Position numbers and translations under genes: made by a program. Below are positions 8,938-53,018 of a stretch of 56,523 nt of DNA, piece by piece (position 1 is the stretch's first letter; every line of letters begins with the position of its first letter). Under the pieces are notes generated by a model. It had not been told where the DNA came from, did no database searches, and saw nothing but the letters and a program-made list of their open reading frames with translations. Location of the stretch: NCBI RefSeq assembly GCF_002113885.1, contig NW_018408798.1, positions 338,282 to 394,804 of the forward strand, given 5' to 3'. This DNA is from Mizuhopecten yessoensis (taxonomy: Eukaryota).

Positions 8938-9059
8938 GACGAGAGGCAGTGCCGCCACCACCACCACCACCACTACCACCACCACCAGTCCACACAATGC
9001 TCACAACAAAACGTCCCAGACAACCTGTCAAAACTCAACACAGAACAACAAACTGGCAG
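8938..9059 (+). CDS. PDE4: PDE4 internal exon, probable LR1 linker between UCR1 and UCR2: (x)TRGSAATTTTTTTTTTSPHNAHNKTSQTTCQNSTQNNKLA
   Basis: Acceptor ttttcag ends at 8937 and donor CAG|GTAAGT starts at 9060. The 122-nt exon is open in the phase 2 to phase 1 frame, and its last G joins the AT of exon 23731 to give GAT (Asp). The peptide is low-complexity, so the call rests on splice signals and phase rather than homology. Confidence 0.75.
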
Positions 9060-22725: not shown

Positions 22726-23569
22726 TATAATACAGCATCCTAACAGTCACCAGTGACATGAAATACAGCATCCTTACTTACAGTCACCAGTGACATATAA
22801 TACAGTGTCCTTACTTACAGTCACCAGTGACATATAATACAACATCCTTACAATCACCGGTGACATATAATACAACATCCTAACAGTCACCAGTGACATG
22901 TAATACAGCATCCTTACTTACAGTCACCAGTGACATGTAATACAGCATATAATACAACATCCTTACAATCACCGGTGACATATAATACAGCATCCTTACA
23001 GTCACCAGTGACATGTAATACAGCATCCTTACAGTCACCAGTGACATATAATACAGCATTCTTACAGTCACCAGTGACATATAATACAGTGTCCTTACAG
23101 TCGCCAGTCACATATAATACAGTATCCTTACAGTCACCAGTGACATATAATACAGCATCCTTACAGTCACCAGTGACATATAATACAGCATCCTTACAGT
23201 CACCAGTGACATATAATACAGCATCCTTACAGTCACCAGTGACATATAATACAGCATCCTTACAGTCACCAGTGACATATAATACAGCATCCTTACAGTC
23301 ACCAGTGACATATAATACAGCATCCTTACAGTCACCAGTGACATATAATACAGCATCCTTACAGTCACCAGTGACATATAATACAGCATCCTTACAGTCA
23401 CCAGTGACAATAATTATACAGCATCCTTACAGTCACCAGTGAGATATAATACAGCATCCTTACAGTCACCAGTGACATATAACACAGTGTCCTTACAGTC
23501 ACAAGTCACATATAATACAGCATCCTTACAGTCACCAGTGACATATTATACAGCATCCTTACAGTCACT
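22726..23569. repeat. 33-bp minisatellite (taatacagcatccttacagtcaccagtgacata), about 25 copies
   Basis: 11-residue periodicity in the ORF track matches the 33-bp unit. Confidence 0.98.
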
Positions 23570-23739
23570 ATTAACAGATGAGAACTCAGACATTGAACGG
23601 TAACTTAAGGTATATTCACTATTTACAGATGAGAACTCAGACATTGAACGGTAACTTAAGGTATATTCACTATTTACAGATGAGAACTCAGACATTGAAC
23701 AGTAACTTAAGGTATATTCACTATTTACAGATGAGAACT
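23565..23739. repeat. 51-bp tandem repeat overlapping the PDE4 UCR2 splice acceptor (about 3.4 copies)
   Basis: CAG|ATGAGAACT recurs with the AG ending at 23577, 23628, 23679 and 23730. Confidence 0.97.
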
Positions 23740-23843
23740 ACACCAAGCTGGCCATGGATACCCTAGAAGAACTTGACTGGTGTCTTGACCAGCTAGAAAC
23801 CATCCAGACTCATCGGTCAGTTAGTGACATGGCGTCCAGCAAG
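23731..23843 (+). CDS. PDE4: PDE4 exon, N-terminal half of UCR2: (D)[37 protein letters not shown]
   Basis: [21 protein letters not shown] is the PDE4/dunce UCR2 signature. Acceptor tttacag ends at 23730 and donor AAG|GTAGGT starts at 23844; 113 nt, phase 1 to 0. Confidence 0.97.
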
Positions 23844-24043
23844 GTAGGTTTTACAACAAGTAGGACTGACATTGATGAAGGCCTCACTGGATTCTATACT
23901 ATCGCAAATGAGATCCTGACTTACACGCCTTATTATGACATATTGTTGTTTAAATCTGTAACTTGTTGTCAACTTAAGAAGAGTTCTTTATACACAGATA
24001 ATGTGTGATATATTTAAACATTTTGTGGCTCCTTTTCTTACAG

Positions 24044-24137
24044 TTTAAACGGATGTTGAATCGAGAATTGAGTCATTTTGCGGAATCTAGCAAGTCAGGA
24101 AACCAAATAGCAGAATATATCTGTAGCACATATCTAG
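24044..24137 (+). CDS. PDE4: PDE4 exon, C-terminal half of UCR2: [31 protein letters not shown]
   Basis: [18 protein letters not shown] is the UCR2 motif. Acceptor ttcttacag, donor TAG|GTAAGT; 94 nt, phase 0 to 1. Confidence 0.97.
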
Positions 24138-26089
24138 GTAAGTTGTCTTTTCTAGCAGAATACAGTGAACACTTTGTTATAGTGTCACCATCTGTTAAGT
24201 ATAATTATGGCTTATCAAGAGGTTCCACAAAATATTGAGGGATATGTGTAAAGTAAAAAGGAAAAGGAGACAATGAATAACATTAGCAGAAAGTCATGAT
24301 CATGTGGCAGATAAATTGAGATCGGCTTTATATCAAGGTTTTTACTGTATAGTGAAAGTCTGTATATTTACCATATTAAGACCTTCATTTTCTTGATAAG
24401 GGTACCAGGTAGTTGTTTTATCAATTTATATATTGGAAAACTCTCTGTGTGTTACTGTGCAAAGCCACCAAGAAAACCTATATGAAATCTGATTGTGTTT
24501 CATTGCCTACAGCAATGGAGTTACTTCCCTTAGGCTTTAAAGTGACCTGATGTATTTTGGTTACTAGGGCAATGATATAAAAAATATATATGGATCAAAT
24601 GTAAATATATCAACCCTTGAAATAATAAAAATTCTGTTCCTTACTGTTATTCAGCAGCATCAAATGAAGACTGTTTTTATTTATTTATTGAGTAATTTTA
24701 AATGATACACCAGCAAAATTTCCCCAACATGGCTGGAATTTAGAGATTTTTAAATGGAGTTTTGGATGCTCTACAAATTCAGCTGTACATCAAAGACTTA
24801 CAGAATGATGCAAGCACTGATTTACAATTGAGTTTGTCTCCATGTATACTTTTTTTAAACTTCTCTGATTTGAAAATTAGCTAGTTCAAAAATATTGTCT
24901 GCGTCAGGTATTATCACCTGACCTACTCTGTTAGGGTTTGGGCCGTTTTTTATGAAATTCATGTCAGGAGGTTAATCCCTTTCCTGTCTTGCACATTGAT
25001 GCATACCCTCCTCTTCTGTGAAATGAAAATGATGAGGTTTCTATCACTAAAATTAAACAACATTAATCGTTTCATTAAGCACTGTCTGTAAACATTTTAT
25101 AAATTACCGTGTTCATCTAAATTAAAACCCAGTGCTGAAAATTTCAAGATTGAATTCAAATTATTTAGATCATTTTGACGTGGGCATTAAAACAAAATAT
25201 TTTCATCAAAGCTTTTTAAGTCTGATTGCGGAGATATATTAGGCTTTTAAACTAAATTGAAAATTTTCATATACTTATTTTTAATTTGTCTTAATATGGC
25301 ACCCTTATCATCGTAGACATGGATTGTTAGCTTCAAATTATTTTATCACTAGTCAACATTTATACACCAATTCATCATTAAGCTAACCAGGCTTTCAGTG
25401 AAAGTCTGCACTATGTTTTATCTTTATTTTTTTATTCTAATGATGAAGTCATCAGAGGGCAAGGTCAAAAGGTCACTTGGTTACAATAATAAAATAGAGG
25501 AAATCCTTCTGTTATGTATTAAAGCAGAGCTGCACACCAAAAAGGTCTATCAGAAAAAGAAATCAGTATTTGCCTCCAATCGTAAGGATTCATTTAAAAT
25601 CCTTTTCTTTGTTGTATTTTTATTTCAATGTGTTTTTAAAAAATACCATACAGACAATCATTCATGTTTGGTTGTTAATAGGGGATAGAAATCTGGCCAG
25701 AGATATGTTGTTTTACTGTTACAGACAGTTGTATTTGACTCCTGATGAAAAGAATTTGCCATAAATGTAAGAACGGTTTGTGAATGAAATTTGATGGGCA
25801 CAATGAATTGTGGGGGGTTTCACTGAGGCTTCTAATCTGAAAAAAAAGACGCCTACTACTCGGCTGTGGGCATGTTAACAACTAGGGGCATCATTTACAT
25901 CAAATATGGTCAGACAGGATTCTCCGGTACAGTTTTCTCAGCGCCTAAGCAATGGATGACGGCCAACCTGTGATGGATCTCAATGATTTCACTGTCAGCC
26001 ATTAGGCCTATACAACCAAACCTTCCACGATTTTAATTCCATCTGAATTAAACTTCCCAAAATATCTAACTCGCTACTCACGATTTCAG

Positions 26090-51393: not shown

Positions 51394-52234
51394 GAGTGCT
51401 GGTCGTACAAACAAAGCTTATCTTTGTAATAAGCATCTCAAGTCTTTGACTGACAAGTAAATTATATAAAATGAAAAACCTAAATCCTCTAGCCTTGAAA
51501 TGGGGCTATTTTTATCATTTTTCCATTTTGCTTTTAAGACCTTAATTGAAATCATCATGATGTATTTAGTGTTCTTGTTTCAAAAAAGAAATTTTTATTT
51601 GATGAAATTTATTTTTCGTATTTCAAGAAGTTGTGTTACCATGATTACATCTGGTTGCTATGACGACTTGAAGTTACAAACAGCAGAAACCAACTAATTC
51701 TAGCTGTAATGCATGCAGACATCATTTGATTTTGACAAGAGGATGTGAACAGAAAGCCTGTAAGCCCCTGTCTATCCTTTTCACCAACCTTCCACATTTT
51801 ACCTCTAAGCGTTTGAGAGTGGTCGAGTGTCTGGGAGATGATTTGACAGCGTCAGAGAGATAGCTAGCCGATTTCATTCAACGATATGTGTTTTCAACCA
51901 AGGCAAAATGCCAACATATTTCTACACTGAAAAAATAGGTTATCTTGGTATACATTAAAACTGCAGAATTTCACGTTTTTTTCTTTTTTTTCGCGCTTGC
52001 CAGCCGAAGAATCAATCTTCTTACATTCAGCTAATTTGCCATTAGTTTTTTTATTTAAGTTTGAAGTATTCTTCACTGTAACATCATGTTACAGAGGCTG
52101 TTATTTGAGATTGTATGTAGGATAATGGAGGTTTTGTACAATACAGAAGACTGCAGTGGTCGGTTCTAAACAGATGTTACTTTACAGCACTGTCGGCTCT
52201 ATAGCCAGCTGTACTGGACAGACATACAGGGAAT

Positions 52235-52442
52235 AAAGACAGTAAAACAGGTGGACATACAAGGGACAAAACAGATGAACAGACAGACATGGGACAAAAC
52301 AAATGGACAAAGGACAAAACAGGTGAACAGACAAGGGACAAAACAGATGAACAGACAGACATGGGACAAAACAGATGGACAGACAGATATACATATTGGA
52401 CAAAACAGATGGACAGACAGACACACACACATATTGGACATA
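52235..52442. repeat. Degenerate ggacaaaacagatg(a/g)acagacagac repeat
   Basis: Read directly; accounts for the ORFs at 52177-52631. Confidence 0.85.
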
Positions 52443-53018
52443 AGGCAGGATGAGTGAAGAAAACAGTTTAAAATATTTGGACAAGGCAGTTTTTTTATTG
52501 AGAAAATACTTGTAACACACAAATGACAAAAACATTTTAACAAATAGATACTGTAAGGGGGTCATTTTTGTGGTGTCAATATTTACCTCTTTGACTTGAA
52601 ATGCCTTTTTTAGTTTTTGCAAGTTGTTCATTTTTGCTTGTTCTCCTTATTGACTTTAACCTATCTTCACAAATTCAATAACTGTTTAATTTTTATTTTG
52701 GAATTTGTTAATCCTCAAATATTTGTAATTCATGATTTTGGCTTCATCTTTAGGCGTAAAAATCCCATAATTACTTCTTTTGCCCCCAATCCTGTGGCGT
52801 TCATGCCCATAATGGCAGTAATAAGTCTGTCAGCCAATAACATGTGCTTTTTATAGCCAATGGCTGATCTCTGATAGACATAAATACTAAATGTGGTCTG
52901 GGTTTATAATGGACAAGCACGGAAAATAATTCATGAAATTTTTTTGTGATTTTTTTTTTTTTTTTTTACCCCTCACTTGTACCGAATCCTAAACAAGAAC
53001 CAATTAAACCCCACACAG

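What the first reader, a model, noticed from the sequence alone, without database searches (positions are those of the whole stretch)
23565..23739. A 51-bp VNTR quadruplicates the UCR2 splice acceptor, and every decoy leads to a stop
Seen: the unit contains the last 42 nt of the intron plus the first 9 nt of the exon (ATGAGAACT). CAG|ATGAGAACT occurs four times, with AG at 23577, 23628, 23679 and 23730. The AGs at 23628 and 23679 have essentially the same upstream context as the true site. Splicing to any upstream copy reads D-E-N-S-D-I-E-(R/Q)-TAA. The units also carry donor-like GTAACT and AG|GTATAT. Inference: copy number could divert transcripts into nonsense-mediated decay or into a product truncated before UCR2, and so tune PDE4 dosage. 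If it does not, it is a neat test of how the spliceosome picks the last of several near-identical acceptors.
Basis: partly seen in the sequence, partly recalled or inferred. Interest (0 to 1): 0.7.

Follow-up and report, generated by a model that had tools for sequence, protein, structure and literature searches.

The report
Scallop PDE4 splice-acceptor "mirage" repeat
The end of an intron plus the first nine bases of the next exon of a scallop cAMP-phosphodiesterase gene are repeated head to tail, yet the assembled transcripts enter the exon only at the last copy, so this is likely a tolerated repeat of a kind already described in lancelets and humans and not a dial for enzyme dosage.

Summary
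The repeat is real: a 51-bp unit (42 nt intron + 9 nt exon) gives four CAG|ATGAGAACT sites, and decoy use would hit TAA. It stands in 4 of 4 DNA runs, whose depths hint at 5-7 copies rather than 4. Contigs of 4 of 4 RNA or presumed-RNA runs join the upstream exon to the last AG only; rare or NMD-degraded products would not show. The stop is one event with a 59% chance rate. This is a 'mirage' (lancelet term, PMC3087553), with human parallels in CBS 844ins68 and F7. It is ordinary here: the same gene has a hidden 45-bp donor repeat, collapsed in the assembly, and a 43-bp acceptor repeat; the scan found such repeats before on other DNA of this and other genomes. New here is a count: in myosin and kinesin genes 14 of 198 donors but 2 of 193 acceptors are echoed into the intron (Fisher p 0.0035), so the acceptor type is the rarer one. 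Dosage tuning is unsupported.

The parts
8938..9059 (+). Upstream PDE4 exon (linker before UCR2); donor CAG|GTAAGT, phase 1
   Evidence: tblastn with the Argopecten protein; identical to 6 of 6 M. yessoensis isoforms tested; its last 30 nt are the loose end of the RNA contigs
22726..23568 (.). 33-bp minisatellite (24.8 copies) abutting the first copy of the 51-bp unit, sharing the four letters TCAC at the join
   Evidence: TRF; kinship to the 51-bp unit not shown (P 0.157 against shuffles)
23565..23739 (+). 51-bp 'mirage' array, 3.4 assembled copies; unit = 42 nt intron end + 9 nt exon start
   Evidence: single locus in G000; present as a loop in 4 of 4 DNA runs
23576..23577 (+). Decoy AG 1; weak context (matrix score 2.89, below the 5th percentile 4.92 of called acceptors)
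23627..23628 (+). Decoy AG 2; -20..+3 identical to the true site (score 7.95)
23678..23679 (+). Decoy AG 3; -20..+3 identical to the true site (score 7.95)
23701..23701 (+). The one base (A; G at 23599 and 23650) that sets the copy feeding the true AG apart; drops the donor-like score from 5.33 to 0.66 and lies next to a possible branch point
   Evidence: sequence; matrix scores; function inferred, untested
23729..23730 (+). Used acceptor AG
   Evidence: RNA contigs of X13, X15, X14, X11
23731..23843 (+). First UCR2 exon (113 nt), donor AAG|GTAGGT
   Evidence: PF18100; RNA joint skipping 200 nt GT..AG; peptide identical in 9 of 9 scallop proteins tested
24044..24137 (+). Second UCR2 exon
   Evidence: PF18100 positions 88-118; RNA contigs
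24108..24162 (+). Hidden 45-bp donor mirage (30 nt exon + 15 nt intron), 1.2 copies in the assembly, about 14-22 by contig depth; in frame and free of stops
   Evidence: 55-nt contig at 14-22 times flank depth in 4 of 4 DNA runs; 75-nt head-to-tail contig in RNA run X15; one locus in G000

Best explanation
The 51-bp array is a tandem duplication of the intron-end/exon-start junction of the scallop PDE4 gene, the assembled transcripts enter the exon at the last AG, and the upstream copies are likely ignored, making it a likely near-neutral 'mirage' minisatellite. Shown: anatomy, presence in four DNA runs, last-AG use in the major RNA contigs, and the commonness of such repeats in this genome. 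Inferred origin: slippage or unequal crossing-over copied a 51-nt piece across the junction and then expanded it; the 5' part of the first copy is missing where the 33-bp array abuts. Inferred choice of site: copies 2-4 have the same -20..+3 sequence, so strength cannot decide; only the last AG is followed by the real exon body and forms the shortest exon (113 nt, against 164, 215, 266) with the strong donor at 23844, so exon definition would favour it. A likely helper is that each decoy is followed within 22-32 nt by moderate donor-like sites, and the G at -30 in the decoy copies puts one over the possible branch point, whereas the copy feeding the true AG has A. Any leak to a decoy would give a stop after 8 codons and would likely be degraded, costing a small share of mRNA.
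For: Last-AG join in 4 of 4 runs from 3 studies, 2 of them on record as RNA, with contigs unbroken at the base where a decoy path would branch and no loose end at the decoy AGs. Repeat in 4 of 4 DNA runs from 4 studies. 6 of 6 M. yessoensis isoform models aligned read ...NNKLA-DENYTK... without insert; 0 of 134 held proteins carry the decoy peptide (weak, truncated products are seldom annotated). Stop at chance level. Window 47% tandem repeat. Two more straddling arrays among this gene's 26 junctions. 16 of 391 called myosin and kinesin sites echo into the intron. Published mirages do not disturb regular splicing (PMC3087553, PMC3902484), and the distal acceptor is favoured in CBS 844ins68 (PMC2630376).
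Against: All runs are de Bruijn contigs, which drop rare variants; a 51-nt insertion path would be removed as a bubble, and decay would deplete it further, so minor decoy use is not measured. X11 holds an 81-nt loop contig of the unit at depth 10.9 against 96.3 for the spliced contig; it has no link to the upstream exon and X11 also covers other intron sequence, but its source is not settled. Acceptor echoes are rare (2 of 193, one of them weak), so tolerance of duplicated acceptors may not be automatic; in CBS it needed G runs, and this unit has no GGG. Folding does not help: the true site is predicted less open (0.34) than the decoys (0.54-0.60). The role of the -30 base is untested.
Confidence: 0.8

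Rival explanations
1. Dosage dial: a sizeable share of transcripts uses decoy AGs, is destroyed by nonsense-mediated decay or yields a product cut before UCR2, and copy number sets PDE4 level.
For: Decoys 2 and 3 score as the true site; all decoy junctions and both micro-exon options end in a stop; depth ratios differ between runs (3.5-4.9), as a length polymorphism would give.
Against: No decoy junction in 4 of 4 runs; the stop is a single chance-level event; similar arrays sit on many unrelated housekeeping exons; no conservation could be shown, since no relative's DNA was available.
Confidence: 0.07
2. Leaky but buffered: decoys take a few percent of splicing events, decay clears them, and weak selection limits array length; mildly harmful, not regulatory.
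For: Acceptor echoes are rarer than donor echoes (2 of 193 against 14 of 198; 1 against 11 contigs with one type only, p 0.006); the acceptor array here stays short (5-7 by depth) beside the donor array (14-22).
Against: Acceptor echoes are not significantly below the intronic control (1.0% against 2.2%, p 0.46); the 43-bp acceptor array of the same gene has 8.9 copies. This rival differs from the best explanation by degree only.
Confidence: 0.1
3. Assembly artefact: the locus holds one acceptor and the copies are a mis-join.
For: The assembly does misstate repeats in this gene: the 45-bp array 400 nt downstream is collapsed.
Against: The head-to-tail loop stands in 4 of 4 DNA runs from 4 studies at several times flank depth; the unit occurs at one place in G000. 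The error, if any, is too few copies.
Confidence: 0.02

Closest known systems
Lancelet 'mirage' minisatellites (Adh3, globins BflGb6 and BflGb9, troponin C, PGBD5); PMC3087553 and PMC3902484, passages read
   Same: Tandem units spanning an exon-intron boundary, splice signal kept in the copies, regular splicing undisturbed, copy number differing between haplotypes; BflGb6 is also of the acceptor type (intron 3' end + exon 5' part).
   Different: Mollusc, not cephalochordate; only 9 exon bases in the unit; three mirages in one gene; length variation here rests on contig depth only.
Human CBS 844ins68; PMC2630376 and PMC1802585, passages read; the primary papers were not held
   Same: Duplicated intron/exon junction at an acceptor; the distal site is strongly favoured and normal mRNA results.
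   Different: Two copies of 68 bp, against four or more of 51 bp; distal choice there is promoted by G runs between the sites, and this unit has no GGG.
Human F7 intron 7 37-bp VNTR; PMC1557585, abstract, outline and Discussion read
   Same: Polymorphic minisatellite multiplying a splice site; only the exon-proximal site is used. Direct parallel to the hidden 45-bp donor array at 24108-24162.
   Different: Donor side; the given finding is on the acceptor side, where the used site is the last, not the first.

Membership tests
Mirage minisatellite | Tandem unit spans an exon-intron boundary | tested here: met
   42 nt intron + 9 nt exon; boundary fixed by RNA contigs
Mirage minisatellite | Unit of minisatellite size (10-160 bp in the lancelet cases) | tested here: met
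   51 bp; range from PMC3087553
Mirage minisatellite | Copies keep the splice signal | tested here: met
   CAG before ATGAGAACT in 4 of 4 copies; 2 of 3 decoys score as the true site
Mirage minisatellite | Regular splicing is not disturbed | tested here: met
   Major contig in 4 of 4 runs uses the last AG; minor forms not measurable from contigs
Mirage minisatellite | Copy number varies between haplotypes | tested here: inconclusive
   Loop/flank depth 3.96, 4.93, 3.74, 3.54 against 2.06 expected; the tool warns that depth is no copy number
Mirage minisatellite | Border copies escape homogenisation | tested here: met
   The inner stretch is identical; the first copy (23573) and the last (23701) each differ by one base; only two differences, so thin
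Mirage minisatellite | Somatic instability (reported for Adh3) | not testable with these tools
   Needs long reads or small-pool PCR from single animals
Regulated splicing-coupled NMD switch | Alternative site introduces a premature stop | tested here: met
   at chance level (59%)
Regulated splicing-coupled NMD switch | Alternative site is used in RNA | tested here: inconclusive
   0 of 4 runs show it, but contigs drop rare forms
Regulated splicing-coupled NMD switch | Conserved across species or regulated by condition | not testable with these tools
   No related animal genome is offered; no raw reads among the 19 runs listed
CBS 844ins68-type silencing | G runs between the duplicated acceptors | tested here: not met
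   0 GGG in the unit

The most novel reading that the evidence does not exclude
Mirages are a genome-wide feature of scallop introns, at about 7% of donors and 1% of acceptors, which would mean thousands of sites. Donor mirages arise above the intronic background and are harmless; acceptor mirages are filtered out and survive where the decoys carry their own silencer. Here one base does it: G at -30 puts a donor-like site over the branch point of the decoys, while A in the last copy frees the true acceptor. The genome would be a ready-made library for the rules of splice-site competition.
Probability: 0.25. Interest if true: 0.55.

Novelty: new member of a known kind. Interest (0 to 1): 0.25.

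Why it matters
The locus itself matters little: a tolerated repeat of a named kind. Three side results have use. First, short-read assemblies hide such arrays: the next exon's donor looks single but stands about 14-22 times in four animals' DNA, which affects primer design, variant calling and gene models. Second, the donor/acceptor asymmetry puts a number on something described so far gene by gene, and bears on how duplicated splice sites are tolerated and on the mirage route to intron gain proposed in PMC3087553. Third, this array, with identical -20..+3 sites and a single base of difference, is a clean minigene substrate for acceptor choice.

Tried and rejected
Folding of 23480-23900 gave no sign that decoys are hidden: predicted openness of -20..+3 was 0.60, 0.54, 0.55 for the decoys and 0.34 for the true site. 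Descent of the 51-bp unit from the neighbouring 33-bp unit: P 0.157 against 5000 dinucleotide shuffles, 0.029 against 800 intronic 29-mers; left open. Micro-exons of 22 or 32 nt from a decoy AG to a donor-like site in the unit: all six end in a stop and no such joint is in the RNA contigs. Recursive splicing at AAG|GTATAT: by eye the upstream bases are purine-rich; not scored, not pursued. Frame bias among donor echoes: 6 of 14 first steps are multiples of three, no signal. Absence of contigs over 23569-23607 in X5, X7, X9 was not read as a deletion: a hole in contigs proves nothing. Whether other animals carry the A at 23701 cannot be read from contigs; X1's two loop depths (54, 48.7) fit a dropped one-base bubble, weakly. 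The junction translations and two of the six exon checks were off frame by my coordinates and were redone. Romano 2002 and Tsai 1996 were not held. One search for PDE4, UCR2 and NMD listed 1 paper, not read. No structure or complex job was sent; none bears on the question. No supplements were opened; PMC3087553's alignment supplement might show whether lancelet decoys differ at the branch point.

Full report
Observation. The array lies at 23565-23739: period 51, 3.4 copies, 98% matches. ATGAGAACT follows CAG at 23578, 23629, 23680 and 23731. The exon that starts at 23731 matches PF18100, the PDE4 upstream conserved regions. Six window exons are identical to 6 of 6 Mizuhopecten yessoensis PDE4 isoforms tested (15 of the cluster's 25 members were listed, 9 proteins aligned), so the window is Yesso scallop PDE4. 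The decoy junctions read DENSDIER*, DENSDIER* and DENSDIEQ*.

Is the stop meaningful? No. It is one TAA copied with the unit. Of 7774 intronic 14-codon windows in this window's non-repeat introns, 59% hold a stop, and 2 of the unit's 3 frames are closed.

Is the repeat real? Yes. The run search listed 19 runs, all kept as contigs; I laid 8. In 4 of 4 DNA runs from 4 studies the unit forms a loop and the unique exit contig starts at 23710, the first word that leaves the loop. Loop depth over flank depth is 3.96, 4.93, 3.74 and 3.54, where the assembled copies predict 2.06; a simple model turns this into about 5-7 acceptors. The tool warns that depth is no copy number, and one run may be the assembly's source. 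The unit occurs at one place in G000.

Which AG is used? In X13 and X15 (RNA on record, one study) and X14 and X11 (RNA guessed, two studies) the contig over the exon carries the end of the 9059 exon as its loose end and joins at 23731, then skips the 200-nt intron to 24044 (13 further pieces were not shown). No loose end lies at a decoy AG, and the contigs are unbroken at the tenth exon base, where a decoy path would branch. This shows the major product only. X11 also has a loop contig of the unit at depth 10.9, unlinked to the upstream exon, beside other intronic cover; unspliced RNA or DNA is the simplest source, but this is not settled.

How is the last one chosen? A matrix trained on this gene's junctions and on sites called in other genes scores decoys 2 and 3 the same as the true site (7.95) and decoy 1 low (2.89). 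So intrinsic strength does not decide. What differs is context: only the last AG has the exon body behind it and a 113-nt distance to the strong donor (score 11.39); the decoys would give 164, 215 and 266 nt. Exon definition is established knowledge; that it decides here is inference. One base also differs: G at 23599 and 23650 makes ACG|GTAACT (5.33, above the 5th percentile of called donors, 4.35), and A at 23701 drops it to 0.66. The same base lies in the best by-eye match to the branch consensus (consensus recalled). That this silences the decoys is a hypothesis. Folding gave no support for masking by structure.

The same gene has two more such arrays. First, the donor of the next exon: the assembly shows only a 10-nt direct repeat at 45-nt spacing (1 of the 24 junctions without an assembled array shows this sign), but the 55-nt contig 24108-24162 has 14-22 times flank depth in 4 of 4 DNA runs, forward minus loop-back depth is near single-copy depth in 2 of 4, and RNA run X15 holds the head-to-tail unit. 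Its unit is in frame and has no stop, which counts against 'every decoy is poisoned' as a rule. Second, outside the window, a 43-bp array of 8.9 copies ends in the acceptor of a catalytic-domain exon (L009:1143-1512); five decoys score 13.9-15.7 against 13.2 for the true site. I have no RNA test for that one.

Base rate. The window is 47% tandem repeat; scallop genomes are reported rich in them (11.3% in C. farreri, PMC5700196; 21.7% in A. pleuronectes, PMC10225492; passages). I took all 85 myosin-head and 127 kinesin exon matches in G000 (58 contigs). By eye, 3 of 170 myosin edges (2 more borderline) and 13-14 of 254 kinesin edges are straddled. An automated test called 198 donors and 193 acceptors from the 212 matches; the rest scored too low and were dropped. 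A 16-mer across the junction recurs in the intron, with up to 2 mismatches, at 14 of 198 donors and 2 of 193 acceptors (Fisher p 0.0035); two other settings gave 16 and 1, and 13 and 1. Intronic control points gave 225 of 7191 (3.1%) after donors and 165 of 7345 (2.2%) before acceptors; donors exceed the control (p 0.006), acceptors do not differ from it (p 0.46). By contig, 11 have a donor echo only and 1 an acceptor echo only (p 0.006); adding PDE4's own assembled sites weakens the Fisher value to 0.028. Limits: two gene families, sites called without RNA, overlapping control points, collapsed arrays missed, one of the two acceptor echoes weak.

Known kinds. [quoted passage not shown] Human CBS 844ins68 duplicates an acceptor junction and the distal site is favoured (PMC2630376, passages), helped by G runs (PMC1802585, passage) that this unit lacks. 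Human F7 intron 7 is the donor-side case (PMC1557585, abstract and Discussion). I found no paper on mirages in bivalves or on a donor/acceptor count in searches; the library lacks most subscription papers, so this is weak. Earlier notes of this scan report the same kind in this genome (ANKLE2 and SOUL donors) and in urchin, abalone and worm genomes; they are unchecked leads, and one pointed me to the lancelet papers.

Verdict. A real, probably polymorphic acceptor mirage, ignored by the major splicing path: a new member of a known kind, interest 0.25. The dosage dial has about 7% odds. The bolder reading, a genome-wide donor/acceptor asymmetry with a one-base silencer on surviving acceptor mirages, has about 25%.

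Noticed in passing
window 24108-24162: 45-bp repeat across the donor of the second UCR2 exon, collapsed to 1.2 copies in the assembly but about 14-22 copies by depth in four DNA runs; in frame, no stop, so a later donor would insert 15 residues per unit.
   Followed up: yes
L009:1143-1512 (G000 C5471 about 400718-401087): 43-bp array of 8.9 copies multiplying the acceptor of a catalytic-domain exon of the same gene; decoys score as high as or higher than the true site.
   Followed up: partly
L061-L155 (myosin and kinesin genes): Donor-straddling repeats are frequent (14 of 198), acceptor-straddling ones rare (2 of 193); examples L107 70 bp x22, L093 55 bp x33, L129 47 bp x27, L092 acceptor 59 bp x2.
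   Followed up: partly
window 24324-24355: Contigs at many times flank depth in DNA runs (bin depth 21-303 against 6-14) with a one-base gap and loose ends: another collapsed or dispersed repeat in the intron.
   Followed up: no
window 24133-24400 and beyond: Runs X11 and X13 cover the intron after the second UCR2 exon (depth 24.5 and 7.6): slow splicing, retained intron, an alternative 3' end or DNA.
   Followed up: no
window 24137-24138: In X15 the spliced path splits one base after this donor (depth 120 to 95.4), which may mark a second downstream acceptor or exon.
   Followed up: no
L009:1689 and 1959: The last intron of the gene begins with the same six letters as the exon after it (AG|GTCAGC on both sides), like an old duplication of a proto-splice site; may be chance.
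   Followed up: no
window 8955-8987: A CCA/ACC triplet repeat in the upstream exon encodes a threonine run 7 residues longer than in three other scallops.
   Followed up: no
G000 C76663:46986-47819 and 51817-52674: Two long uninterrupted matches (28-32% identity) to the PDE catalytic domain in tandem, apparently without introns.
   Followed up: no
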